Assembly (NCBI GenBank): GCA_041741735.1
Contig: JBGSJS010000059.1
Location: 1 to 54,080, forward strand
DNA from: Desulfomonilaceae bacterium
GTDB lineage: Bacteria > Desulfobacterota > Desulfomonilia > Desulfomonilales > Desulfomonilaceae
DNA: 54,080 nt
Reading direction: 5' to 3'
Shown: one piece after another, positions 14,912 through 48,454 of the stretch
Numbering within the stretch: the stretch's first letter is position 1
How the letters are laid out: the number at the start of each line of letters is the position of its first letter
Notes under the pieces: generated by a model
What the model saw: the letters and a program-made list of their open reading frames with translations, nothing else
Told to the model about the DNA's origin: nothing
Databases searched by the model: none
Program-made: the position numbers and the translations under genes

Positions 14912-16501
14912 ATGAGAGTCCTGCTTATAAGCCCTAAATTCCCGTTGTCGTACTGGACGATGGAGCCCTCTTGCAGGATCTCCGGCAGCAAAACCTTCAT
15001 GCCTCCTCTCGGTCTGCTCACTGTGGCGGCCTTGCTGCCCCGGGAGTGGGAACTTCGGCTGGCAGATCTGAACGTGCGGAGCCTGCGAACCGATGACTGG
15101 ACTTGGGCCGATATAGTCATGATTTCAGGCATGTTCATACAAAGAGAAGGTGTGCTGGCAGTTCTCCAACAAGGCAAGAACCGCGGAAAGACCGTTGTTG
15201 TGGGAGGCCCGTACGCCACTTCTATGCCGTATGAGGTCCTGGAAGCCGGGGCCGATTTTGTCGTCGTGGGAGAAGGCGAAAACACCGTTCCATTTTTGCT
15301 TGCGGCTCTCCATGAGGGCAAGGCAAAAGCAGTGGTCAAGAACGAAGTCAAGCCGGAAATGAGCACGTCACCCGTTCCACGGTTTGATCTGCTTCGACTT
15401 GAAGATTACGCACTTCTCGCAATTCAGACTTCGCGTGGTTGCCCGTTTAACTGTGAGTTCTGCGATATTGTGAATCTCTTCGGCCGGAAGCCCCGCTACA
15501 AGAATCCAGACCAAGTCCTTCTCGAGCTGGATGCCTTGCACAATCTTGGATGGAGATCAGAGGTCTTTATTAGCGATGACAATTTTATTGGTAATCCCCA
15601 GCGGGCCGAGGCCATACTTGAGAAGATAATTCCATGGACAAGAGACAAAGTTGAAGAATTCACATTTTCAACACAGGTTTCGCTAAATCTGGCTAGGCAC
15701 CCCAAGCTGATGGACCTCATGTATCGAGCAAACTTCAGAGGGGTTTTCAGCGGTATTGAGACCCCTGACGAAGAAGTGCTCTTACGTAACCGAAAGTACC
15801 AAAACATAAGAAACCCGGCTGCGGAATCCGTTGCGAAAATCCAGAGCCATGGCATATCAGTGGTCGGCAGTTTCGTGATCGGGTTCGACGGTGAGAAAGA
15901 GGGCGCCGGTGACCGGATATGCTCTTTAGTAGAGCAAGCGGACATCCCTATCGTCATGATCGAGTTGCTGCGGGCGTTTCCCAATACCGACCTGTACGAC
16001 CGGCTTAAACGAGAGAATCGCCTCATCCAGGTGAGGAACATTGGCACCGGCATTGAAAGCGAGAGTCTGAACTATATACCCACGAGGCCTGAGGAGCAAA
16101 TATTGGCGGAGTATGCCACGTCGTGGGACTATCTGTACGACCGTTCACGTTTCCTGGCTCGTGCTTACAGGCATTTCCTCGCACTACCTCCTGTAGCCAA
16201 AAGTCCCCGGCAGTCAAACAAGTACCTTATCGCCCAGAATGGCCTGTCTTCGCGAGGGCGAGGCAGAAGAGGCTTCAACGAGGCTGTTGGTTTCACCCTT
16301 CTTGTCTGGTGGCAAGGCTTGAGCTCCAGGTGCAGACGTCAATGGTGGACCCAGCTTGTCGGTATGTGTTGGAAGAACCCGACCCGAGTTCGAGAGTATC
16401 TTATTGTAGCGGGATTCAGCGAGCACATGTTTCGGTTAAGAGGAATTATCGGAAAGAGATCTGAAGATGCAAGGAAAAACCAAAGCTCCACTGGAGGTTG
16501 A
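14912..16501 (+). CDS. B12-binding domain-containing radical SAM protein (class B rSAM with a DUF4070-like C-terminal region).
   Basis: N-terminal cobalamin-binding Rossmann region (LLISPKFP...PPLGLLTVAALL...VVVGGPYAT). The CPFNCEFC CxxxCxxC radical-SAM motif falls inside the ALLAIQTSRGCPFNCEFCDI context. 529 aa. The C-terminal ~90 aa are Arg-rich/low-complexity and overlap the convergent MNT gene, so the 3' end may be shorter. Confidence 0.85.
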   Translation: MRVLLISPKFPLSYWTMEPSCRISGSKTFMPPLGLLTVAALLPREWELRLADLNVRSLRTDDWTWADIVMISGMFIQREGVLAVLQQGKNRGKTVVVGGPYATSMPYEVLEAGADFVVVGEGENTVPFLLAALHEGKAKAVVKNEVKPEMSTSPVPRFDLLRLEDYALLAIQTSRGCPFNCEFCDIVNLFGRKPRYKNPDQVLLELDALHNLGWRSEVFISDDNFIGNPQRAEAILEKIIPWTRDKVEEFTFSTQVSLNLARHPKLMDLMYRANFRGVFSGIETPDEEVLLRNRKYQNIRNPAAESVAKIQSHGISVVGSFVIGFDGEKEGAGDRICSLVEQADIPIVMIELLRAFPNTDLYDRLKRENRLIQVRNIGTGIESESLNYIPTRPEEQILAEYATSWDYLYDRSRFLARAYRHFLALPPVAKSPRQSNKYLIAQNGLSSRGRGRRGFNEAVGFTLLVWWQGLSSRCRRQWWTQLVGMCWKNPTRVREYLIVAGFSEHMFRLRGIIGKRSEDARKNQSSTGG

Positions 16502-19306: not shown

Positions 19307-19519
19307 TCAGCCGAGCTTGATTTTTCCCGAAAGAAGATTGTCGTAAAATGCACACGACGTTCTGCACTTCGCAATCTTATCGTCGTACGATCCTTGTTTC
19401 TCGCCTCTGCACTCGGTCCCGGTAACTTTATAGCAGTCAAATCCGTGGTCCGGGTACGCGGGGCAGTCTTTTTCTCTCCCGCATTTCAAGAAATCCCAGC
19501 ACTTTCCGCTCTGATTCAT
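19307..19519 (-). CDS. Small Cys-rich protein with a CW...CG...CP motif (hypothetical metal-binding).
   Basis: 70 aa from MNQSGKCWDFLKCGREKDCPAYPDHGFDCYKVTGTECRGEKQGSYDDKIAKCRTSCAFYDNLLSGKIKLG. GGAGGGGGAA SD right before this ATG. Eight Cys. Resembles the CW-type Cys modules seen N-terminal to deltaproteobacterial sensors, but that is recalled from memory and not verified. Confidence 0.5.
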   Translation of the reverse strand: MNQSGKCWDFLKCGREKDCPAYPDHGFDCYKVTGTECRGEKQGSYDDKIAKCRTSCAFYDNLLSGKIKLG

Positions 19520-19767
19520 TTCCCCCTCCTGCATCGGCTTGTTCAGATTTTGTGCCGTCGGTCCCTCAATCCGAAGTCCTGACGGCCAACCTATCTCTCG
19601 ATCCTCCAGGTGTGGAAGGTACCCTACCACAACGGTCGATGCGCCTTCCCCAAGCACCTCGACAAGTTTCCTAGGCTTTCACCACGGGAAGATAACGGGT
19701 AATCCGAGAAATTCTGTACATTATTGTCCACATTTCCTTTCTTTTCGTCAACATAAGTTTTTATAAC

Positions 19768-20719: not shown

Positions 20720-21559
20720 CTAAGCCACCTTCTCCCTCAGATTACCCAATGCGGCCAGGTGGCCCTTCTCTTCTTCGGCGATCTTAAAGAGCATCTCCTT
20801 GGTTTGGGTGTTGTTCGTCTTTTGCGAAAAGCGGAGGTACAAGTCCAGAGCCTGGGTCTCCAGCATCATTGAGATGTCGAGCAGGCTGCCGACCGAGTGG
20901 AGGTACCTCTCGTTGCGCTGCATGAATTCGTCGCTGCGGAAACCGCCTTCCATCACTTTGGCCGAGACCTGGGCCTCAAACTCCTCGGGAGCGATCTCTC
21001 CGGGCCCGATGGAGCGATACAGCTCCAAGAGATACTGTTTGTGCTTGTCCTCGATGGATGCCAACTTCTCCAGAAGACTCGCGAGCTCCCCTGCCTCGGT
21101 GTCGGCCAGGACGGCCCGATAGAAATCTCCCAAACTCTGTTCCATTCCGTAAGCCAGCTTGATGATTCCCACGGGCGTCTCGTCGGCCCTGACGAGGTCG
21201 AGGTTCAATGCAACAGGTCCTTCGGCTACGCCGCTATCCCAGGCCTTGATTCCCCCGCTCAAATTGTAGACCTTCTTGAATCCTTGGCCGGCAAGCAATT
21301 GAGCCGCAACTCGGCTCCTGCCGCCCACGGCTCAGTAGACGATTACCGGTTTGTCCGGGTCAATTTTGTCGTAGGAATCGGTCAATTGCGGCAGGGGTAT
21401 CAGTTGGGCGCCGGGAATATGCTCCCCTTCATACTCGGAGGGCTGTCGCACGTCGAGGAGGGTGTAGGAGCCTTCCGGGTTGTCTTTCATGAAGGCCCGG
21501 GCTTGGTCCGCGTCGATGGACTCCACCGGAGTAAAGAGCTTTTTCAGCGAATCGAACAT
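20720..21559 (-). CDS. Selenoprotein: rhodanese (sulfurtransferase) domain with Sec (UGA at 21332-21334) at the catalytic Cys position, fused to a C-terminal rubrerythrin/ferritin-like domain.
   Basis: The track splits this into 21332-21559 and 20720-21328, which are in the same frame and separated only by TGA. Read-through gives ...LLDVRQPSEYEGEHIPGAQLIPL...DKPVIVY-U-AVGGRSRVAAQLLAGQGFKKVYNLSGGIKAW, the rhodanese active-site loop C-X2-G-X-R, with U in place of C. A hairpin GAGCCG-AGUUG-CGGCUC (21301-21317) starts 15 nt after the UGA (SECIS-like). The C-terminal half has ferritin-like E..H motifs (EEEKGHLAAL). Confidence 0.75.
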
Positions 21560-21621: not shown

Positions 21622-23139
21622 TCATTTTGCGGCCCATTTCTTCACCGGACCCGCGGCCACGAGATACAGGAGCCGGCTCGCGTCGTTGAGCCCGAGGAGG
21701 CGTGCCGCCTCATCGTCGTAGAATGCGCCGATCCCGCAACATCCCAGACGCATGGCCGTGGCCGCCACGTAAAGCCTTTGGCCCAGGCGTCCAGCGGCCA
21801 GCATGGCATGACGGTATCCGCGTGGACCCCGGTTGGACTCCAGGAGCTCCATATTGGTCAAGAAAAGAAAATGCACGGCGCAGTTGGCCAGCCAAGCCTG
21901 ATCCAAACAAATGTGCATCATGTCGCCGATGACGGACTTGTGAAACACGGTCGAGACCGTCTTCCTTTCCCTGTTCAGGAGATAGAAGCCGGGCTCCAAA
22001 CCCTCGACCTTCCCTGCAAGAAACCCTACCGCAACGGCGTCGTTTCCGGGAAATAGCGCTGCCGACCCCGAGCCGCCGTCCGAGGAGAGCACGGTGAGCA
22101 GCGCGGACAGGCAGTCGGCGGACAGGGCGTCCTGCACGAAATTCCTCATGGAACGCCTCTTGAAAACGGCTTCAGCGTACCCAAGAGACTCGGGCCATGG
22201 TTCCGGGGAAAATATCTTTCGTTCGTCGTGAGACACAACACCGAGGCTTGCAGCCATGGACGCCCCAGTCCTGCTATGCTCCACCACCCTGGACGTTGCG
22301 GCATGAACCTCCAATATGGGAGGGTACTCAATCTCTCTTGGGGAGACTCGGCTCGCTTCCGCCAGCCCCTCAACAGGATCTCCCAGGCTCGCGTCGCCCA
22401 CGTCCGACTCGTCGGCGGGTGTCCAAACGGCCACAGCGGCAAGACAAACCTCACGGGAAGGGTCCACCCCCATGAGGGAATTAACGGCTTGGTCGTCGAA
22501 ATCGTAGAAGAAACGATGGGCCAACCGCTCCGATCTCAGAGCCGGCCCAAGGTTTTCCGCCAAATGTCCCGTGTCCAGCAGATGGTAACGGTATGCCCGA
22601 TCCCGGTACTTCCATGAGCTTCGAAAGAAAATCGACGTGAGGAGAAAGATCAGGGCAGGGGGAGAGGAAGGGGCCGGGGAGAGCATCGGAGCAAGTGCTC
22701 CCATAACATTACCCTCTCGAATGAGGGTAATGGATTGGTCGGCAACGTCTTGATGGTAGAGACCGGGGGCGATTCCCTGCACGTCGAGGATCGATGCGTA
22801 CAGCTCGAACGGGTACAGGGCACCCGCCGACGCTACACTCCGATAGTAGAAATCCGCACCACCGTGTCGTGCTTTGGCGGTCAACGCATGGGCGAGCAAC
22901 ACAATGCGACCGAGCCGGTCCGCGTCAAGCGATCCCTGGGCATCAACTGAAGCCTCGCCCGTGAAGAGATCCGACAGTCGTTTCTCCTGCAGCGCCGGTT
23001 CTCGGGAAAGTGGAACGTTCCTGATGCCGGGGCATTTCTTGAAGACGTTCGGCTGATTCGACCAGTCCATAAAATGCCCGCCCATATCCTGCCGACGGTA
23101 GCTGGTCAGGTCGTGATAATCCCGAGCGGACTCCATCAT
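21622..23139 (-). CDS. SagB-type dehydrogenase / tandem nitroreductase-like domain protein.
   Basis: 505 aa. Two nitroreductase-fold halves (...RRSMRNF...ALSADCLSALLTV...; ...AGALYPFELY...) typical of the SagB/ThcOx family. AGGAG SD before ATGATG. Confidence 0.7.
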   Translation of the reverse strand: MMESARDYHDLTSYRRQDMGGHFMDWSNQPNVFKKCPGIRNVPLSREPALQEKRLSDLFTGEASVDAQGSLDADRLGRIVLLAHALTAKARHGGADFYYRSVASAGALYPFELYASILDVQGIAPGLYHQDVADQSITLIREGNVMGALAPMLSPAPSSPPALIFLLTSIFFRSSWKYRDRAYRYHLLDTGHLAENLGPALRSERLAHRFFYDFDDQAVNSLMGVDPSREVCLAAVAVWTPADESDVGDASLGDPVEGLAEASRVSPREIEYPPILEVHAATSRVVEHSRTGASMAASLGVVSHDERKIFSPEPWPESLGYAEAVFKRRSMRNFVQDALSADCLSALLTVLSSDGGSGSAALFPGNDAVAVGFLAGKVEGLEPGFYLLNRERKTVSTVFHKSVIGDMMHICLDQAWLANCAVHFLFLTNMELLESNRGPRGYRHAMLAAGRLGQRLYVAATAMRLGCCGIGAFYDDEAARLLGLNDASRLLYLVAAGPVKKWAAK

Positions 23140-23181: not shown

Positions 23182-23691
23182 TCATCCTCCCCAAGGCATA
23201 TTCGCGTACACTTCCGACAATCGGTCGCGATAGTCCCGGAAGAACTGTTCGTGCTGCTTTTCCCAGTCAGCCAGCATCTTGAGGGCCTGTGAGGCCTTGC
23301 CTTCGGTCTGTTCCGACATCTTTCCGTAAAATTCGCTCAAATCCTTCTCAATGAGCCATGCGGTATTGAAGACGGTCACGTCCGGCACCATCGAGCCTTC
23401 GACGCACTTCTCAAGAAACTCGGATTTGGCTCGTTGGTCGAAGTAGTCCGTCGGCGGGAGGGCGACTTCCCGGGCTCTCGCCAGATCGATCTCTGCATCT
23501 TGCTTGAGGTCGGCGAGAATCAAGGAGATGAACTCGATATGTTTCTCCTCCTCCTGTATCAGGCGTCGCAACGCGGTTACCGCCGCGCCGATCCCCATGC
23601 TTTCAAGAGAAGTCCGGAAGAAGTTCATACCGGTCTTCTCCTGATTCAGGGCGTACTCGAAAATCTTAATCAGCCTTTTGTTATCACCCAT
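23182..23691 (-). CDS. Rubrerythrin-like ferritin-like domain protein (no rubredoxin domain).
   Basis: 169 aa with E..H diiron-type motifs (LIQEEEKHIEFISLIL; LIEKDLSEFYGKM...ADWEKQHEQFF). Paralogous to the C-terminal domain of the Sec-rhodanese fusion. Confidence 0.65.
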   Translation of the reverse strand: MGDNKRLIKIFEYALNQEKTGMNFFRTSLESMGIGAAVTALRRLIQEEEKHIEFISLILADLKQDAEIDLARAREVALPPTDYFDQRAKSEFLEKCVEGSMVPDVTVFNTAWLIEKDLSEFYGKMSEQTEGKASQALKMLADWEKQHEQFFRDYRDRLSEVYANMPWGG

Positions 23692-24915
23692 ATCCGATTC
23701 CTCCTCCGATCTTTGGTTAAAGGTAACCTCTCCGGCAACTCGAGTGACATCATAGCAGTTCGGGAGACCGGAAGTAACGTCAAAGCGCGTTGAGACGGTG
23801 TAACTGCGGATCGAAACCGTTCCTGTTCCGGCCGATTACATTCCCCATTCAAGAGCCGCGCATGATTTGATTTCGGCCACCCCTCCGCATGAGCGATCCA
23901 TGACGCGCCTCCCTTGGCTGCTCATTACCGGAACATCAGAGCAAGCCCTCACAAACCACACCTTTAGTGGAAAAGAGTATAGTGGCTCGGACGCTGCGAG
24001 GCAAGTAGCAGAATGAAAGGATATATAACGAGTGTGAAGGGGCCTATAAGCGAGGGCACGATAGGAAGTCAAAAGGAGGCCGATTGTTGGCGGTGGACTC
24101 GGCCCGACCCCGAAGTTCCATCAATCAAGCAAGAATTCCGGGAATCAGGTTCATGTCGACGTAAGGCTGACCTTATAATTTAGTATCGGGAGTCGTCTTC
24201 ACCATTTCAGCATCAAGTTGGCCAGCCGACGGTAAATTACTTCCTGAGCAATACTGTCGACTCATTCCTCTTCCGGGCCGACGAATCGGATCCGGGGTCG
24301 GGTCCAGTCCGCCGATCGTCTCAAACGATCGGCCTCCTCTCAGGTAAGTTACGACAGGTCATCTCCCGGTTGGTTTCATGCTCTTCGAAAGATTTTTTCG
24401 GCCTTCGGGCAATTTTCCACGATCTCAGTACGTTATGCACTTTATTTTTTTGTGATAAAGTCGTCTATTTCCTCCGAGCGGTCAAGTAAGGGATGTTGTT
24501 GTGATATGGGGAAGAGGCCTTTCCCGCTCCCCGGAAAAGATTACCCAACAGGAGCGGGAACACAGTCCAGCAGCGGCCGGTTTTCTTCCTTACCCATTCC
24601 CCATAGGCACGGTAAACATGTGAACAACGTGTTCTACGGGAAACCCGCGAGAACTCCCTCCGCAGTCACTCTCTCAAAGGGCTCCGAGAGTCCTTAGCTC
24701 ACGATTGCGCATTTTTGGCCCCGGCGGCATTCCCGAGGCATCATCTATTAACGATCGAACGCTCTCTCCGTCATTCCTACGGAGGCAGGAATCCAGGCTG
24801 TTCCGAACACCTGGACCCCGGCCTTCGCTCGGGGTGACGACCCGGGACCATGAGGGGTCATCTTGAAATCGACTGCCTTATTCAACCGTATTTCAGAAAT
24901 GGAATACTTACAGTC

Positions 24916-40794: not shown

Positions 40795-41817
40795 ATGATG
40801 ACTCAGGATGACCGGCTCCAAGCATCGGGAGGCCTCGAATTGGTACACCGAATCTCTCGTGCTCTCCCCGGCACCTTACCTTGCCCAGAGAAGGCCACCG
40901 TTATGCCGGAACCGGCAAAGAGAACCATCAAAGTCAAACCCATACTCGCCGATCTTCGCGCCGGATTGGACCCGCCGGCTCTGAAGAGCAAGTACGGCCT
41001 CTCAGATCGTGAGCTCAAAGCTGTTTTGAACAAGCTTGAGAGCATGGGCGCTCTGCCCCCCGGCGTCCTGTCCCGCAAGCCGGCTCCGGGTCGCCGGGAA
41101 TCCGGGGTCTCCTCCGGACGGTCGTCCGAGCCTTCCACCACAAGACGAGGGGAGGGGCTGGATTCTCCCGGCCCTGCGATTCAGACGCCGGTGCGATGTC
41201 CCATATGCCATGCCGACAAGAAAACCCTCTCCGCGCCCTGTCCTCAATGCGGTGCTCTCCGGGGCGGATCGCTCCTTCGAGATGCTCCCGGCATTCCCGT
41301 GCCGGAGGGGGACAGGCGCCATGTCGCACGGGTTTCCAGACCGCCGCAACAACGTTCGTCAAATCCGTGGGTGACCATCGGCATCACCACGGTGATATTT
41401 TTCGCTATCGGCTTGGGATTGTTGGCAGTCTCGTCCCATCGGTCCACCGTGACATCCAGTCTGCCCTCTTCCCTCTCAACGGCCGGGTCTGAAGGCATCA
41501 TGAAGATTACCGCGTCGAATTTTCAAACGGACGTGGTGGAAGCTTCCAGAACCAAACCGATACTCATTGAATTCTACGCGGATTGGTGAGGGCCGTGCAG
41601 ACGGATGGAGTCCGTCCTCGCAGATGTGTCCGCAGAGCTCGGTTCCGACGCAGTGATCGGGAAGATTCACGAGAAGGAGCGGGCGCTTTTCGCAAAGTTC
41701 GGGGTGAGAGGGATTCCGGCTCTCTTCATTCTCCGCGACGCTGAAGTGAGGCAGCGCTTTGTGGGCACACAGCCGAAGAGAGTGCTGATCGATGCCTTGA
41801 AGAAGCACGGCTCGTGA
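40795..41817 (+). CDS. Selenoprotein: membrane-anchored thioredoxin with a W-U-G-P-C active site (UGA at 41587-41589) and an N-terminal cytoplasmic zinc-ribbon region.
   Basis: Track ORFs 40795-41589 and 41605-41817 share one frame and are separated by TGA. Read-through gives ...KPILIEFYADW-U-GPCRRMESVLADV...VRGIPALFILRD..., the thioredoxin fold with Sec replacing the first Cys of WCGPC. A hairpin GACGGA-UGGAG-UCCGUC (41600-41616) starts 11 nt after the UGA. Upstream in the protein are a C-x2-C...C-x2-C zinc ribbon (CPICHADKKTLSAPCPQCG) and a TM helix (WVTIGITTVIFFAIGLGLLAV). The true start may be the internal MPEPAKR (40900). Confidence 0.75.
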
Positions 41818-44754: not shown

Positions 44755-45615
44755 TCACGCCTCGGTCACGGGCACGTTCGCATAATCGTTGAGGCGAAGC
44801 AAGAGAGCCCCGGCGAGCGTCTTGCGATACTCTGCTCCCGCTCGAACGTCGCTGATGGGGGAAACCGTCTTTTCCACGAGAGCTGCCGCTCGCCGCAGGG
44901 TATCGGGGCACAGCTTTTCACCACAAAGCGCTTCCTCGACCTCCGCTGAGGTGACCACCGTAGGTCCCACGCTCCCCCACGCGAGCCTGACCGCTTGGAT
45001 CACACCCGAGTCGGATACTTCCATAAGTGCAGCCATGCTCGCTACCGAGCAGGCCTGGGCTTTACGCCTCCCGACTTTCTCATAGTGCTGAACATTCCAC
45101 CGCGCATTCTTGCCCAGCCGGACCCCTGTTACAACTTCACCCTTTTCCAGAGCCGCCATCCCGGGGCCTTGGATGAAATCGCCGATCGGAGCTCGTCTCT
45201 CCCCATCGGCCGATCGGATCTCCACCTCCGCCTTCAACGCGTAAAGCGGCGGCAAGGTGTCGCCCGCCGGGGAAGCGGTCACGATGTTGCCCCCTATGGT
45301 TCCCATGTGTCGGATGGGTGGGGAGCCCAAAACTGCCAGGGCTTGAGCCAGAACGGGGAACTCCCGTTGAATGAGAGTAGTCTCCAGCAGGCGGCTATGA
45401 GTGGTAGCAGCGGCTATGAAAACCTCTTCACCTTCGTCCCTCACGCCGATGAGCTCCTCGACGCGCTCCAGACAGATCAAGCATTCCGGCGCTTCCAACC
45501 CCGACCGCATCTTGACCAGGAAATCGGTGCCGCCCGCATAGAGCGCCGCATCGGGCTCATTGCCGAGGACCGTCCAAAGCTCCTCAAAATTTCTTGGCAG
45601 ATGAACCGATCTCAT
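44755..45615 (-). CDS. FAD-binding (medium) subunit of a xanthine dehydrogenase/CO dehydrogenase-family molybdoenzyme.
   Basis: Start MRSVHLPRNFEELWTVLGNEPDAALYAGGTDFLVKMRSG (CoxM/XdhB FAD-binding PCMH fold). The ATG overlaps the upstream stop as ATGA. The 263-codon N-terminal extension in the track ORF is antisense or overlap noise. Confidence 0.85.
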   Translation of the reverse strand: MRSVHLPRNFEELWTVLGNEPDAALYAGGTDFLVKMRSGLEAPECLICLERVEELIGVRDEGEEVFIAAATTHSRLLETTLIQREFPVLAQALAVLGSPPIRHMGTIGGNIVTASPAGDTLPPLYALKAEVEIRSADGERRAPIGDFIQGPGMAALEKGEVVTGVRLGKNARWNVQHYEKVGRRKAQACSVASMAALMEVSDSGVIQAVRLAWGSVGPTVVTSAEVEEALCGEKLCPDTLRRAAALVEKTVSPISDVRAGAEYRKTLAGALLLRLNDYANVPVTEA

Positions 45616-46088
45616 GATTCCTCGCCTGCTTTGCAGTACGGAATGGCCTTTTCCACGGCATCGACGATCTTCTGGTATCCGGTGCACCTGCAGAGATTCC
45701 CTGCCAGGCCCTGCCTGATTTCTTCCCTGGTCGGCTCGGGGTTGCGATTCAACAGATCCACCGAGGCCATGACCATGCCCGGAATGCAAAAGCCGCACTG
45801 TACTGCGCCGTGCTCGATGAATGATTCCTGGACCGCGTGGAGGCTTCGGCCGCCGTCCAGCCCCTCCACGGTGGTGATTTCGCATCCGTCCAGCTGCACC
45901 GCAAGCATGAGACACGACAGTCGGCTCTCCCCGTTGACGAGAATCGTGCAGGCTCCGCAATCGCCGGCTCCACAAGATTCCTTTGTTCCGGTCAATCCCA
46001 TGTCTTCCCGCAGCAGATCCACTACCCGACGGTCCGGCCTCACATCGATATTGGTGTCGGTTCCATTGAGCTTGAACGAGATCCTCAC
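45612..46088 (-). CDS. [2Fe-2S] (small) subunit of the XDH/CODH-family molybdoenzyme.
   Basis: GTG start; C-x4-C-x2-C...C plant-type cluster (CGAGDCGACTILV) and a second C-x2-C...C-x-C cluster (GAVQCGFCIPGM...CRCTGY). Confidence 0.9.
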   Translation of the reverse strand: MRISFKLNGTDTNIDVRPDRRVVDLLREDMGLTGTKESCGAGDCGACTILVNGESRLSCLMLAVQLDGCEITTVEGLDGGRSLHAVQESFIEHGAVQCGFCIPGMVMASVDLLNRNPEPTREEIRQGLAGNLCRCTGYQKIVDAVEKAIPYCKAGEES

Positions 46089-48454
46089 TCTCTACCTCCA
46101 TCCCTTTCTTTGCTTTCCAGCGCGGCCTTGACCCGCTCCGGAGTGAGAGGGAATTCCGAGCAGCGGATACCGCAAGCATCCCGGACGGCATTGGCCACAG
46201 CAGGGAGAGGGCCGTTGGTAGCGATCTCTCCCACCCCTTTGAGTCCGAAGGGGCCTGTGGGCTCGTGGATCTCCACGGCAAGGGTCTCCATTTCGGGAAC
46301 ATCCGGTGCCGTGGGAACGAGGTAGGTGGTAAAATCCGGGGTGAGCACTTGCCCGTTGAGCACGTCGAACGATTCGGAAAGGGCGAATCCCAGGCCCTGG
46401 GCAATCCCCCCCTGAATCTGCTGCTCGTACACCTGCGGGTTGATCACCTTGCCGCAATCGCTGATCGCCACATAGCGTTTCACATCGACAATACCGGTTA
46501 TCTCGTCCACCTCCAGGGCAGCCGCATGCGCTCCGTACGAAAAGAGCGTGTGAGGCAATCCGTGAAGGCTCAGGTTCTCTTCAACCCCGAGGCCGTCCCG
46601 CGCAACCGGTGCCCTGAAGTGATGAACGGCAACCCGTTCGTCGTCGTTGAGGAATGCCGCCAGTCTCGACAGCGGCACCTCTCGACCCGACGGGAGGTGT
46701 TTCACCGCTCCGGGCACAAGGACCATGTCGTTCGTGTCACGGATCATGAGCAGATCGGCCGCGCGCTGAAGAATCCGATCCTTGAGAATTTCCGCGGCGC
46801 CGATCAAGGCGTTGCCGAAGGTGTACGTGCAGCGGCTCGCCGATGCGGACCCGCTCGGAAGTGTCCGGTCCGTATCCGGTTGAATCAAGTCTATGGCGTC
46901 GGCGTTCTGGTTGAGCAGCGCCCCTACTATCTGCAGATTGGTGCTCGCGTTTCCCTGACCCATATCCACTACACCGCAGTAGACGACTATTCGTCCCTCT
47001 CTCGTCAATTCGAGCTTTGCATTGGCGTAATCGGGCACCACCGGACCGTACCCGGAAGCGTGCATCAGCGCCGCGATCCCTACGCCGCGACGCTTGGAAG
47101 AGCCTGCACCGGCCTTCCAGGCTTCACGGTCTTTCCAGAGTTTGTGCTTCGACAGTGTTTCGAGACAATCAGTCAGGCCGGTGGAGGAGACCAGGGTCTT
47201 ACCCACGCAGTTCCTGTCGCCGATCTTCAGAGCGTTTTTCAGGCGGAGCTCCACCGGGTCCATTCCCAGGCGCGCGGCGAGGATGTCCATCATCTGCTCG
47301 ACGGCAGCGGTCACCTGCGTCACTCCAAAGCCCCGAAAAGCACCGCCGATGGGATTGTTGGTGTACACGCACCATCCCCTGAGCGCGGCATGGGGGATGC
47401 GGTAAGGACCGCCGGCGTGCTCCAGGGCAAGAGCGAGAACAACTCCTCCGAGATGATCGTACGGCCCTGTATCAAGATAAAACTCCACATCCAGAAAATG
47501 GAGTGTCCCGTCATTTTTGGCGCCAAGCCGGTAGCGCATCTTCGCCGCATGGCGTTTCGTCCCGGCCAGGAACGATTCTTCACGGTCCCACCACATCTTG
47601 ACCGGTCGGCCCCCTGAATTGAGGGCAGCGAGTGCGAGAAGGCTCTGCACCGTTACTCCATCCTTGCCTCCGAAAGCGCCGCCGACATAGGGCGCCACGA
47701 CCCTTACCCGGGACGAATCCAGACCCAGAGCCTCGCAAACCTCCGCACGGTCACGGAAAGGCGTTTGGGTCGAGCAGGTAATGACGATCTTGCCGTCCGC
47801 TTCCGTGCAGGCCCACCCGGATTCGGTCTCCAGGTACGCGTGCTCCTGCCTCGGCGTCTCGAAGCACCCCTCAACAATCAGATCGCATTCCAGCTCGGCA
47901 TCCGACGGCGATCCTATGCTCAGATCTCCTTTGAGGAGGATATTCCCTTCCGGGCTGTCTTCGTGAACGAGAGGGGCACCTTCCGCCAGGGCTGCTTGCG
48001 GATCGAACACGCCGGGCAGCGGCTCGCAATTGACACGGATCAAGCGGATCGCCCTCCGGAGGACCTCTCTGCTCTCGGCCAGGACGAGGGCCACCGGGTC
48101 CCCGCAATGCCTTACCTTGTCGTCCACGAGGACTGGCTGGTCTTTTCTCACGACCCCTTGACGGTTGGTCCCCAAAACATCTTTGTGCGTGAGGACGCGA
48201 AGAACCCCCGGCATCTCCGCGGCTCGGGCGGCGTCAATACCAACCAGTCGACCGTGAGGCAGACCGGCCCTTTTCACCCCGGCCCAAACCATGTCACTGG
48301 AGTAGAAATCTGCCGCGTACAACTCTCTGCCCGTCACCTTGTCCAGTGCGTCGGCCCGCGGAAGCGTGACTCCAATTTGTGGTGTGCCATGGCGCTCGCC
48401 TGCACGAGAAATGCCCGATGATCTCGGGAGCACGTTTGACGTTACCTTGGACAA
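46085..48454 (-). CDS. Molybdopterin-binding (large) subunit of the XDH/aldehyde oxidoreductase/CODH family.
   Basis: 789 aa. ..RADALDKVTGRELYAADF.. N-terminus typical of the family; its stop overlaps the FeS subunit start. The start codon is TTG in the track and the true start is uncertain. Confidence 0.85.
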   Translation of the reverse strand: MSKVTSNVLPRSSGISRAGERHGTPQIGVTLPRADALDKVTGRELYAADFYSSDMVWAGVKRAGLPHGRLVGIDAARAAEMPGVLRVLTHKDVLGTNRQGVVRKDQPVLVDDKVRHCGDPVALVLAESREVLRRAIRLIRVNCEPLPGVFDPQAALAEGAPLVHEDSPEGNILLKGDLSIGSPSDAELECDLIVEGCFETPRQEHAYLETESGWACTEADGKIVITCSTQTPFRDRAEVCEALGLDSSRVRVVAPYVGGAFGGKDGVTVQSLLALAALNSGGRPVKMWWDREESFLAGTKRHAAKMRYRLGAKNDGTLHFLDVEFYLDTGPYDHLGGVVLALALEHAGGPYRIPHAALRGWCVYTNNPIGGAFRGFGVTQVTAAVEQMMDILAARLGMDPVELRLKNALKIGDRNCVGKTLVSSTGLTDCLETLSKHKLWKDREAWKAGAGSSKRRGVGIAALMHASGYGPVVPDYANAKLELTREGRIVVYCGVVDMGQGNASTNLQIVGALLNQNADAIDLIQPDTDRTLPSGSASASRCTYTFGNALIGAAEILKDRILQRAADLLMIRDTNDMVLVPGAVKHLPSGREVPLSRLAAFLNDDERVAVHHFRAPVARDGLGVEENLSLHGLPHTLFSYGAHAAALEVDEITGIVDVKRYVAISDCGKVINPQVYEQQIQGGIAQGLGFALSESFDVLNGQVLTPDFTTYLVPTAPDVPEMETLAVEIHEPTGPFGLKGVGEIATNGPLPAVANAVRDACGIRCSEFPLTPERVKAALESKERDGGRE

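What the first reader, a model, noticed from the sequence alone, without database searches (positions are those of the whole stretch)
20720..21559. Selenocysteine-containing rhodanese fused to a rubrerythrin-like domain (UGA at the catalytic Cys, SECIS-like hairpin downstream)
Two track ORFs share a frame and are separated only by TGA (21332-21334). Read-through places the UGA exactly at the active-site position of the rhodanese C-X2-G-X-R loop (VIVY-U-AVGGRS), and homologues have Cys there. A 6-bp stem with a 5-nt loop (GAGCCG AGUUG CGGCUC, 21301-21317) starts 15 nt after the UGA, and an outer GGCA/UGCC extension is possible, which resembles a bacterial SECIS. The C-terminal half is a ferritin/rubrerythrin-like domain. 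The same domain recurs as the stand-alone gene 23182-23691, two genes upstream in the same minus-strand gene run.
Basis: partly seen in the sequence, partly recalled or inferred. Interest (0 to 1): 0.65.

Follow-up and report, generated by a model that had tools for sequence, protein, structure and literature searches.

The report
Selenocysteine rhodanese fused to di-iron domain
This is one gene, wrongly split in public annotation, whose in-frame UGA very probably encodes selenocysteine at the catalytic site of a rhodanese fused to a ferritin-like di-iron domain; it belongs to a known kind of selenoprotein that is widespread in sulfate-reducing bacteria, so it is real but only moderately new.

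Summary
On the minus strand, a 75-codon ORF (21559-21335) and a 203-codon open frame (21331-20723) share a frame and are separated only by TGA (21334-21332). Read through, they give a 279-residue protein: a rhodanese domain plus a rubrerythrin/ferritin-like domain. The UGA sits at the catalytic Cys position (VIVY-U-AVGGRS).

The selenoprotein reading is strongly supported.
- At least 119 species-representative genomes, almost all Desulfobacterota, carry the same fusion with TGA at this codon.
- Thousands of homologues have Cys there.
- A 5-7 bp hairpin with the Val codon's GU in its loop follows the codon in 113/118 TGA forms but only 15/93 Cys forms.
- Two alternative synonymous codon sets build this hairpin. 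It tracks TGA in 12 of 17 sister-clade contrasts and never the reverse.
- The window also holds a second selenoprotein gene, a thioredoxin with W-U-G-P-C.

Sec machinery genes are not in the window and could not be checked.

Sec-containing rhodaneses are already catalogued. The fusion to a di-iron domain is not mentioned in any paper I could search, and no NCBIfam model covers it. In other lineages the usual neighbour gene is an oxidoreductase related to the domain often fused to SelD. The biochemical function remains inferred.

The parts
20720..21559 (-). Single selenoprotein gene: 279 codons plus stop, ATG 21559-21557, TAG 20722-20720. It encodes a rhodanese fused to a ferritin-like di-iron domain. 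The product contains no Cys, so Sec76 is its only thiol/selenol.
   Evidence: full-length Cys homologues of 278-281 residues
21567..21571 (-). Shine-Dalgarno-like AGGAG, 7 nt upstream of the ATG
   Evidence: read directly from the sequence
21332..21334 (-). In-frame UGA (codon 76), read as selenocysteine at the catalytic position of the rhodanese loop U-A-V-G-G-R
   Evidence: TGA at the same codon in 119 of 120 genome hits and in 5 of 5 loci found independently of the motif; Cys in homologues
21301..21317 (-). Apical SECIS-like hairpin GAGCCG-AGUUG-CGGCUC: 6 bp stem, 5-nt loop carrying the GU of the Val codon, 14-nt spacer after the UGA, -9.2 kcal/mol
   Evidence: a hairpin in this register or the alternative one is present in 113/118 Sec forms against 15/93 Cys forms; sister-clade contrasts 12:5:0
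21285..21327 (-). Whole predicted SECIS element. It includes the lower stem CGGCAG (21323-21318) / UUGCCG (21294-21289) and the outer UGG/CCA pairs. The lower stem is predicted in this sequence only and varies among relatives.
21236..21475 (-). Rhodanese homology domain, residues 29-108
   Evidence: PF00581, E 7e-23; structural matches to single-domain rhodaneses and to rhodanese modules of persulfide-handling fusion enzymes
20744..21166 (-). Ferritin/rubrerythrin-like four-helix-bundle domain, residues 132-272. The di-iron ligand set E140, E170-x-x-H173, E234, E264-x-x-H267 is conserved, as is an invariant E204-G-G.
21622..23139 (-). Upstream gene in the same run: SagB-type / double nitroreductase-fold dehydrogenase, 505 residues. 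It lies directly upstream of the selenoprotein gene in 31 Sec loci but only 1 Cys locus.
23182..23691 (-). First gene of the run: stand-alone rubrerythrin-like protein (169 residues), a distant paralogue of the C-terminal domain
   Evidence: conserved synteny in L001 and L244-L247

Best explanation
20720-21559 (minus strand) is one gene for a 279-residue selenoprotein.

Decoding (mechanism inferred from established bacterial Sec biology). During translation, the UGA at 21334-21332 is not read as stop. [quoted passage not shown] Selenocysteine is then inserted at position 76.

Product (shown). Position 76 is the catalytic nucleophile of a single-domain rhodanese (U-A-V-G-G-R). That domain is fused to a C-terminal ferritin/rubrerythrin-like four-helix bundle that keeps a complete di-iron ligand set.

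Function (inferred, low confidence). The selenol probably carries or reduces a chalcogen adduct such as a persulfide, polysulfide or perselenide, or passes electrons to the di-iron site. It would do so as part of a redox/stress module.
- In this Desulfomonilaceae-type locus the partners are a stand-alone rubrerythrin-like protein and a SagB-type dehydrogenase.
- In most other lineages the partner is a pyridine-nucleotide-disulfide oxidoreductase related to the domain often fused to SelD.
- The window protein has no Cys, so any resolving thiol or reductant must come from another protein or a small molecule.
For: Gene structure and active-site placement.

Cys homologues: more than 3500 hits. Full-length ones read VYC-A-x-GGRS, and C76 is invariant in 56 aligned sequences.

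Conservation of TGA:
The frame is open about 75 codons upstream and about 200 downstream.
- A motif-independent sample found through the 75-residue N-terminal fragment gave 5 of 5 loci with TGA, A[VI]GGRSRVAA and 203 open codons.

Translation through the site: codons after the TGA use all synonymous alternatives (Gly 4 codons, Arg 6, Ala 4) while the amino acids stay fixed.

TGA is otherwise a stop in these genomes: about half of the family genes themselves end in TGA.

Hairpin specificity:
- A stem of at least 5 bp in one of two fixed registers is found in 113/118 Sec forms against 15/93 Cys forms; at least 6 bp in 92/118 against 5/93.
- The two registers use mutually exclusive synonymous codon sets. 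Arg CGC goes with Ala-Ala GCU-GCG, and Arg AGG/CGG goes with GCG-GCU. Cys forms prefer GCG-GCC.
- bSECIS-like geometry is met by 90/118 Sec forms against 5/93 Cys forms.
- In 17 independent Sec-versus-Cys sister-clade contrasts the hairpin is commoner on the Sec side in 12, equal in 5 and never rarer.
- Sec and Cys forms are interleaved on the tree, with at least 25 changes.

Sec decoding in this organism or lineage:
- A thioredoxin gene with W-U-G-P-C and a following 6-bp hairpin lies in the same window.
- D. tiedjei selD carries a Sec codon (PMC5389517).
- Deltaproteobacteria are selenoprotein-rich (PMC5029168).

Di-iron domain.

Genomic context.
Against: - No selA, selB, selC or selD is present in the 54-kb window, so the machinery is unverified for this genome.
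- The hairpin in this single sequence is only marginally better than shuffles (z = -2.1).
- Classical covariation within a fixed register is weak, because the stem lies in conserved codons.
- Overall folding energy is not lower in Sec forms than in the more GC-rich Cys forms, many of which (59 of 93) carry a different 5-bp hairpin.
- The genome and metagenome scans required the motif AxGGRSRVAA, so conservation of that motif in those two sets is partly by construction. This is mitigated by only 5 motif-independent loci, plus L001.
- Rfam has no model matching this element.
- There is no protein-level evidence of selenium.
- The functional proposal rests only on domain content and gene neighbourhood. 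The SelD-related oxidoreductase partner is absent from this window.
Confidence: 0.9

Rival explanations
1. The TGA is a genuine stop. Two polypeptides are made: a 75-residue N-terminal rhodanese fragment, and a ~180-200-residue C-terminal protein started at an internal codon. This is a naturally split gene, as public annotation has it.
For: Gene callers annotate it this way in the window's own NCBI record (P0011, 180 residues) and in more than 110 database clusters of 73-76-residue fragments. Codon 88 is often ATG (78 of 118).
Against: - The split would cut the catalytic loop and leave neither half with a complete rhodanese fold.
- The 11 codons between the TGA and codon 88 keep their amino acids with free synonymous variation.
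- ATG at codon 88 is equally a family residue in Cys forms (53 of 93), so it is not start-specific.
- Predicted starts differ from record to record: 175, 180, 188, 191, 192, 196 and 202 residues.
- The hairpin is tied to TGA forms.
- Sec and Cys forms interconvert repeatedly by single-base changes at this codon only.
Confidence: 0.03
2. The UGA is recoded through the SECIS/SelB route, but partly or wholly as cysteine. The agent would be a SelC*-type tRNA(Cys) with anticodon UCA and a second SelB, as described in some Syntrophobacterales and Desulfobacterales. Alternatively, thiophosphate misloading could do this when selenium is scarce.
For: PMC5389517 describes delta-proteobacterial selC* tRNA(Cys)UCA next to a second selB copy. 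It shows that this tRNA can translate the opal codon of D. tiedjei selD as Cys in E. coli. Cys is clearly tolerated at this position, given the many Cys forms.
Against: No selC* or selB* is visible in the window or in 25 related loci scanned for tRNAs. Keeping a costly UGA plus hairpin in more than 100 species is best explained by a selective advantage of Sec itself. The published system is an addition to a complete Sec apparatus, not a replacement for it.
Confidence: 0.05
3. The TGA is a sequencing or assembly error, or marks a decaying pseudogene.
For: The window is a metagenome-assembled contig (P0011, NCBI, 54080-bp contig), where single-base errors do occur.
Against: The same TGA is present in a 92%-identical relative assembled independently (L001 and L002). 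It is also present in at least 119 other genomes, including isolates Desulforhopalus singaporensis DSM 12130 and Desulfospira joergensenii DSM 10085. Both halves stay open and conserved.
Confidence: 0.01

Closest known systems
[quoted passage not shown] Eight such genes were reported in the Olavius algarvensis delta symbionts (PMC1976440).
   Same: Sec replaces the catalytic Cys of a PspE/GlpE-type rhodanese, and the motif U-x-x-G matches (U-A-V-G). The taxa match (delta-proteobacteria). One of my hits (L003) comes from the Olavius Delta 4 symbiont, so this family may well have been counted in that survey.
   Different: None of these papers mentions a C-terminal rubrerythrin/ferritin-like domain. 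I could not retrieve the representative sequence MBM9537886.1, so identity with this family is unproven.
NCBIfam NF041203 'rhodanese_LYCAU' rhodanese-related (seleno)protein, and NF045694 TsoB rhodanese/DsbD fusion-like selenoprotein
   Same: Both are rhodanese-fold selenoproteins of anaerobes.
   Different: Scores are far below the cut-offs: 36.7 against 115, and 21.6 against 805. In the LYCAU type the catalytic Cys is kept and Sec lies two residues later (C-x-U). Here Sec is at the catalytic position itself. The domain partners also differ.
ExtH, the rhodanese-like lipoprotein of Geobacter sulfurreducens. From my own knowledge I equate it with the catalogue's 'form 1, UxxS' selenoprotein; no tool result shows this.
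   Same: It is a rhodanese-fold protein of a delta-proteobacterium, and a paper cited in PMC13510729 links it to selenite uptake.
   Different: It is a secreted lipoprotein in an outer-membrane cytochrome cluster with no di-iron domain. Its motif is U-x-x-S, not U-x-x-G. That ExtH is the form 1 selenoprotein rests on my own knowledge, not on a tool result.
Rhodanese domains fused to persulfide-handling redox enzymes: persulfide dioxygenase-rhodanese (5VE3), CoADR-RHD (3ICR), NADH-dependent persulfide reductase Npsr (3NTA/3NT6), CoA-persulfide reductase (8A56)
   Same: These are the best sequence and structure matches for the N-terminal domain. The design is the same: a rhodanese Cys loop delivers or receives a persulfide at an iron or flavin redox centre. 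In many relatives a pyridine-nucleotide-disulfide oxidoreductase is the adjacent gene.
   Different: The partner domain here is a di-iron four-helix bundle, not a metallo-beta-lactamase or flavoprotein. The nucleophile is Sec. No activity has been measured.
Rubrerythrin / erythrin / DPS-like 'thioferritin' di-iron proteins (PF02915; 2VZB, 2FZF, 1VJX, symerythrin 3SID)
   Same: Four-helix bundle with E, ExxH, E, ExxH ligands. Classical rubrerythrin and peroxiredoxin genes lie nearby in some relatives.
   Different: There is no rubredoxin-like CxxC domain, and the window protein has no Cys at all. A rhodanese domain sits where reverse rubrerythrins carry their electron-donating domain. Sequence identity to solved structures is only 13-23% among the bacterioferritin-related, DPS-like, erythrin and di-iron carboxylate matches.

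Membership tests
Bacterial selenoprotein (SelB/SECIS-dependent UGA recoding) | In-frame UGA with conserved coding sequence on both sides | tested here: met
   about 75 codons upstream and about 203 downstream stay open in the full-length hits among the 119 genome hits and in all 5 independently found loci; variation after the UGA is synonymous only
Bacterial selenoprotein (SelB/SECIS-dependent UGA recoding) | Homologues with Cys aligned to the UGA | tested here: met
   C76 is invariant in full-length homologues; Sec and Cys forms are interleaved on the tree
Bacterial selenoprotein (SelB/SECIS-dependent UGA recoding) | Stem-loop immediately 3' of the UGA with bacterial SECIS geometry (loop about 16-37 nt from the UGA, G in the first two loop positions; criteria recalled from bSECISearch) | tested here: met
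   Window: 6-bp stem, loop AGUUG, 20 nt from UGA to loop, -9.2 kcal/mol. Criteria met by 90/118 Sec forms against 5/93 Cys forms. TGA-specific in sister contrasts. Fixed-register covariation is weak.
Bacterial selenoprotein (SelB/SECIS-dependent UGA recoding) | selA, selB, selC (tRNA-Sec) and selD present in the genome | not testable with these tools
   None in the 54-kb window, and the rest of the genome is not available. Indirect support: a second UGA-containing gene (Trx W-U-G-P-C) in the window, and D. tiedjei has a Sec-containing selD (PMC5389517).
Bacterial selenoprotein (SelB/SECIS-dependent UGA recoding) | Selenium physically present in the full-length product | not testable with these tools
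   Needs 75Se labelling or mass spectrometry
Rhodanese homology domain, catalytically competent type (PF00581) | Domain match above the curated threshold and a six-residue active-site loop C/U-X4-R | tested here: met
   81.4 bits against 22.2; loop U-A-V-G-G-R followed by S; structural matches to GlpE, TSTD1 and Npsr rhodanese modules
NF041203 rhodanese_LYCAU (seleno)protein | Score at or above 115 bits and a C-x-U motif | tested here: not met
   36.7 bits; the motif here is Y-U-A-V, with Sec at the Cys position
NF045694 TsoB rhodanese/DsbD fusion-like selenoprotein | Score at or above 805 bits and a DsbD-like fusion with a U-x4-U motif | tested here: not met
   21.6 bits; no DsbD domain
Rubrerythrin-type di-iron domain (PF02915) | Four-helix bundle with E...ExxH...E...ExxH metal ligands | tested here: met
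Canonical rubrerythrin | Rubredoxin-like Fe(Cys)4 domain fused to the di-iron domain | tested here: not met
   No Cys residues at all in the window protein; the partner domain is a rhodanese

The most novel reading that the evidence does not exclude
The rhodanese/di-iron fusion is a distinct, so far unannotated selenoprotein family. Its selenol works together with the di-iron centre in chalcogen trafficking, for example making or reducing a protein perselenide or persulfide to feed SelD or to detoxify selenium or sulfur species. Two observations support this: its usual gene partner is a homologue of the oxidoreductase domain repeatedly fused to SelD (TIGR03169-like), and DedA/VTT-flavoprotein fusions lie nearby. 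A selenoprotein serving selenium supply itself would be a new functional class.
Probability: 0.15. Interest if true: 0.65.

Novelty: new member of a known kind. Interest (0 to 1): 0.4.

Why it matters
Practical value: one widespread gene is systematically mis-annotated as two.
- More than 110 database clusters hold 73-76-residue 'rhodanese-like' fragments, alongside orphan 'rubrerythrin' fragments.
- In one JGI entry the UGA position is translated as Trp (P0005).
- A dedicated family model would correct selenoproteome counts for Desulfobacterota.

Biological value: this selenoprotein has Sec as its only redox-active chalcogen and is tethered to a di-iron site. Its family-level link to a SelD-associated type of oxidoreductase gives a concrete, testable lead on how anaerobes handle persulfide or perselenide chemistry.

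SECIS evolution: the family is also a clean natural experiment. Two alternative synonymous codon solutions build the same hairpin, and the hairpin is repeatedly lost after TGA-to-TGY conversion.

Tried and rejected
- Rfam at gathering thresholds on the whole window, and in permissive mode on 21240-21380, found no SECIS family, only chance miRNA-model hits.
- tRNA scans of the window and of 25 related loci found no tRNA(Sec).
- Pfam annotation of about 40 window ORFs found no selA, selB or selD.
- Fixed-register covariation counts were uninformative, because two registers coexist and most stem positions are fixed by conserved codons. I replaced them with a register-aware Sec-versus-Cys comparison and sister-clade contrasts.
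- Comparing overall folding energy between Sec and Cys forms did not discriminate. Cys forms are more GC-rich and fold slightly better.
- I tried to establish whether the literature's representative Sec-rhodanese (MBM9537886.1) is this fusion. No supplements are held, a search for the motif string found no paper, and the cluster look-up returned no accessions.
- DNA for P0005 (Trp at the UGA position) and P0008 could not be fetched.
- The SelD-related oxidoreductase partner was sought in the window and in the related Desulfomonilaceae-type loci and is absent.
- Split-gene, pseudogene and error readings were considered and rejected (see rival explanations).
Full report
**1. The observation**

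On the minus strand an ORF starts at ATG 21559, with AGGAG seven bases upstream. It encodes 75 residues ending ...DPDKPVIVY and then meets TGA at 21334-21332. The same frame continues without interruption as AVGGRSRVAAQLLAGQGFKK... for 203 codons, to TAG at 20722-20720.

Read through, the 279-residue product matches Pfam Rhodanese (residues 29-108, 81.4 bits) and Rubrerythrin (residues 132-272, 39.7 bits). The UGA is the first residue of the six-residue rhodanese active-site loop (U-A-V-G-G-R).

RNAfold extends it with CGGCAG/UUGCCG (21323-21318 with 21294-21289). The stand-alone gene 23182-23691 is also rubrerythrin-like and is a distant paralogue.

All the stated facts are correct. Taken alone, the hairpin is only weakly better than chance: z = -2.1, and 10 of 200 shuffles fold as well.

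**2. Comparative evidence that the UGA is decoded**

A protein search with Cys substituted for the stop found more than 3500 relatives. Most are 278-281 residues, come from Desulfobacterota, and read VY-C-A-[IV]-GGRS. A few close relatives appear only as C-terminal fragments (P0008, P0011 which is the window's own NCBI call, and P0015). One JGI protein has Trp at the position (P0005).

The 92%-identical relative L001, on a 381-kb Desulfomonilaceae contig, has the same TGA and the same gene order.

Of those hits, 119 are this same fusion with the frame open on both sides. They include:
- isolates Desulforhopalus singaporensis DSM 12130 and Desulfospira joergensenii DSM 10085;
- many Desulfobacula, Desulfotignum, Desulfobulbaceae and Desulfomonile MAGs;
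- the Olavius algarvensis Delta 4 symbiont.

That scan imposed the motif, so I drew an independent sample. A search with only the 75-residue N-terminal fragment returned more than 110 clusters of 73-76-residue proteins, which are public annotations truncated at this codon. All five loci fetched from them have TGA, then A[VI]GGRSRVAA[QH], then 203 open codons.

After the TGA the amino acids are fixed while every synonymous codon is used (Gly 4 codons, Arg 6, Ala 4). This is the signature of translation in this frame. TGA is otherwise a normal stop in these genomes: about half of the family genes end in TGA.

**3. The hairpin is specific to the TGA forms**

The same scan with TGY in metagenomes gave 93 distinct Cys-form sequences. 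Positions below are counted with the T of TGA as 0.

Sec forms carry one of two perfect stems.
- Type B (about three quarters): (G)CGCAGC / GCUGCG(C), with loop CGNGUN, starting 11-13 nt after the UGA.
- Type A (the window's type): GAGCCG / CGGCUC, with loop NGUNG, starting 14 nt after the UGA.

In both types the invariant G24-U25 of the Val codon sits in the apical loop.

The counts:
- A stem of at least 5 bp in one of these registers occurs in 113/118 Sec forms and 15/93 Cys forms.
- A stem of at least 6 bp occurs in 92/118 and 5/93.
- The two types use mutually exclusive synonymous codon sets. Arg CGC goes with Ala-Ala GCU-GCG, and Arg AGG/CGG goes with GCG-GCU. Cys forms mostly use GCG-GCC.
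- Criteria I recall from bSECISearch (loop 16-37 nt from the UGA, G in the first two loop positions, dG at or below -7.5) are met by 90/118 Sec forms and 5/93 Cys forms.

On a neighbour-joining tree of 199 family proteins, Sec and Cys forms are interleaved, with at least 25 changes. Among 17 independent sister contrasts between a pure Sec clade and a pure Cys clade, the hairpin is commoner on the Sec side in 12, equal in 5 and never rarer. Four of the five Cys forms that still have a stem of at least 6 bp use TGT. That is what recent single-base conversions from TGA would leave.

Caveats:
- Fixed-register covariation statistics are weak, because most stem positions are fixed by conserved codons and two registers coexist.
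- Overall folding energy does not separate the classes. Many of the GC-richer Cys forms (59 of 93) have a different 5-bp hairpin.
- The tree is a simple NJ tree without support values.
- Rfam holds no matching family.

**4. Does the organism decode Sec?**

Three indirect lines support Sec decoding.
- The window has a second gene with an in-frame TGA in a classic selenoprotein context. It is a thioredoxin domain (PF00085, E 3e-21) reading ...EFYADW-U-GPC..., with TGA at 41587-41589 on the plus strand. A 6-bp hairpin, GACGGA-UGGAG-UCCGUC, starts 10 nt after the UGA. Thioredoxin UxxC is a catalogued selenoprotein (PMC9312934).
- Desulfomonile tiedjei selD itself has a Sec codon (PMC5389517).
- Deltaproteobacteria are among the most selenoprotein-rich bacterial clades (PMC5029168).

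One nuance: some delta-proteobacteria have a tRNA(Sec)-like tRNA(Cys)UCA next to a second selB copy, and this could put Cys at such sites (PMC5389517). That would still be SECIS-directed recoding.

**5. What the protein is**

An AlphaFold model of the 68%-identical Cys homologue P0001 is confident (pLDDT 87.6, pTM 0.88).

The N-terminal domain matches single-domain rhodaneses. It also matches, notably, the rhodanese modules of persulfide dioxygenase-rhodanese, CoADR-RHD, NADH-dependent persulfide reductase and CoA-persulfide reductase.

Across 199 and 56 family members, E140, E170-x-x-H173, E234 and E264-x-x-H267 are invariant or nearly so, as is an E204-G-G motif. The metal site is therefore presumably functional.

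There is no rubredoxin-like domain, so this is not a canonical rubrerythrin. The window protein has no cysteine at all. Sec76 is its only selenol or thiol, and any resolving or reducing partner must be external.

**6. Genomic context**

In the window and its Desulfomonilaceae relatives the conserved run is Band-7 protein, rubrerythrin-like protein (169 residues), SagB-type double-nitroreductase dehydrogenase (505 residues), then the selenoprotein. In relatives, but not in this window, a CopZ-like HMA protein and a heavy-metal P-type ATPase follow downstream.

Across the wider family the commonest partner is a 372-residue pyridine-nucleotide-disulfide oxidoreductase immediately downstream. It is present in 63/93 Sec loci and 19/49 Cys loci that have enough downstream sequence. 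Often a VTT/DedA-flavoprotein fusion and a classical rubrerythrin follow, and sometimes a peroxiredoxin lies nearby.

All seven oxidoreductase partners tested align end to end with NCBIfam TIGR03169 'Nterm_to_SelD', at 239-270 bits. This is below the 310-bit cut-off, so they are related rather than members. TIGR03169 models the NADH-dehydrogenase-like domain that is the most frequent fusion partner of SelD (bioRxiv 10.1101/014928). This partner is absent from the window.

The SagB-type gene lies upstream in 31 Sec loci and 1 Cys locus.

**7. Most likely mechanism**

Shown:
- a single gene;
- UGA at the catalytic codon;
- conservation of the UGA and of the reading frame across more than 100 species;
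- a TGA-specific downstream hairpin;
- an intact di-iron ligand set.

Inferred from established bacterial Sec biology (PMC9312934): SelB bound to Sec-tRNA(Sec) recognises the hairpin and inserts Sec at codon 76.

Inferred with low confidence: the selenol carries or reduces a persulfide, polysulfide or perselenide, or relays electrons to the di-iron site, within an oxidative, chalcogen or metal stress module. The SelD-related flavoprotein partner in other lineages makes a role in selenium or sulfur trafficking a specific, testable idea.

**8. Comparison with what is known, and novelty**

Sec-containing rhodaneses are an established selenoprotein kind.
- The current catalogue lists five forms (PMC13188914). 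One is a PF00581 'UxxG' form that fits this motif.
- The Olavius symbiont study counted eight such genes (PMC1976440).
- A 2016 survey counted 25 genes in 24 organisms (PMC5029168).

This protein fails the two dedicated NCBIfam selenoprotein-rhodanese models. No paper I could search mentions a rubrerythrin or ferritin fusion. Public records split the gene.

I therefore file it as a new, or at least undescribed and unannotated, member of a known kind. It works by the standard bacterial Sec mechanism.

**9. Verdict**

Interest is moderate (0.4). A specialist would not be surprised by a Sec-rhodanese in a delta-proteobacterium. Three things are worth recording: the scale of the mis-annotation, the Sec plus di-iron architecture, and the link to a SelD-associated type of oxidoreductase.

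Noticed in passing
window 41500-41817 (+), TGA at 41587-41589, hairpin 41600-41616: A second likely selenoprotein gene. It is a thioredoxin domain reading ...ILIEFYADW-U-GPC..., followed 10 nt after the UGA by GACGGA-UGGAG-UCCGUC. The frame is also open upstream to ATG 40795, through a zinc-ribbon-like CPIC...CPQC segment and a hydrophobic helix. It may therefore be a membrane-anchored Sec-thioredoxin.
   Followed up: partly
L004-L122 and L123-L242, directly downstream of the rhodanese/di-iron gene; absent from the window: The commonest neighbour is a 372-residue pyridine-nucleotide-disulfide oxidoreductase. It aligns end to end with TIGR03169 'Nterm_to_SelD' at 239-270 bits (cut-off 310). That model describes the domain most often fused to selenophosphate synthetase. 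A VTT/DedA-flavoprotein fusion (714 residues) and a classical rubrerythrin often follow.
   Followed up: partly
L243-L246, 1-4 kb downstream of the gene: In Desulfomonilaceae-type loci the Rbr169 / SagB-like / selenoprotein run (in L243, which lacks the Rbr169 and SagB-like genes, the selenoprotein gene alone) is followed by an ~80-residue ORF, a CopZ-like HMA protein and a heavy-metal P-type ATPase. This hints at a link to metal stress. It is not the case in the window itself.
   Followed up: no
public protein databases (P0011, P0122-P0241, P0005): The gene is systematically split in annotation. More than 110 clusters hold 73-76-residue 'rhodanese-like domain-containing protein' fragments, plus C-terminal 'rubrerythrin' fragments with arbitrary starts. 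One JGI entry translates the UGA position as Trp.
   Followed up: yes
L127, L155, L192, L220 (Cys forms): Four of the five Cys-form genes that still carry the Sec-type hairpin (at least 6 bp) use TGT rather than the usual TGC. This is consistent with recent TGA-to-TGT conversions whose SECIS has not yet decayed.
   Followed up: partly
window 19307-19657 (-) and 14912-16501 (+): A small Cys-rich two-CW-domain protein (NF045718) lies just downstream of the selenoprotein gene. A B12-binding radical SAM/DUF4070 enzyme lies a few kb further on. I established no link to the finding.
   Followed up: no
window 23692-24915: A 1.2-kb stretch without a convincing ORF lies between the Band-7 gene and the rubrerythrin-like gene. 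It holds only a weak sigma-70-like site at 24004-23976 (-), and Rfam finds nothing there. L001 has a similar ~1-kb gap.
   Followed up: no
window 44755-48454 (-): A xanthine-dehydrogenase-family molybdenum hydroxylase: the MoCo-binding subunit (789 residues) overlapping the start of the FAD/CO-dehydrogenase flavoprotein subunit (549 residues). From my own knowledge, some enzymes of this family use a labile selenium cofactor. This was not examined.
   Followed up: no
L041, L074, L076, L048, L067: A few carriers of the TGA form are MAGs labelled Acidobacteriota, Myxococcota, Neomarinimicrobiota or Pseudomonadota. This could be binning error or horizontal transfer out of Desulfobacterota.
   Followed up: no
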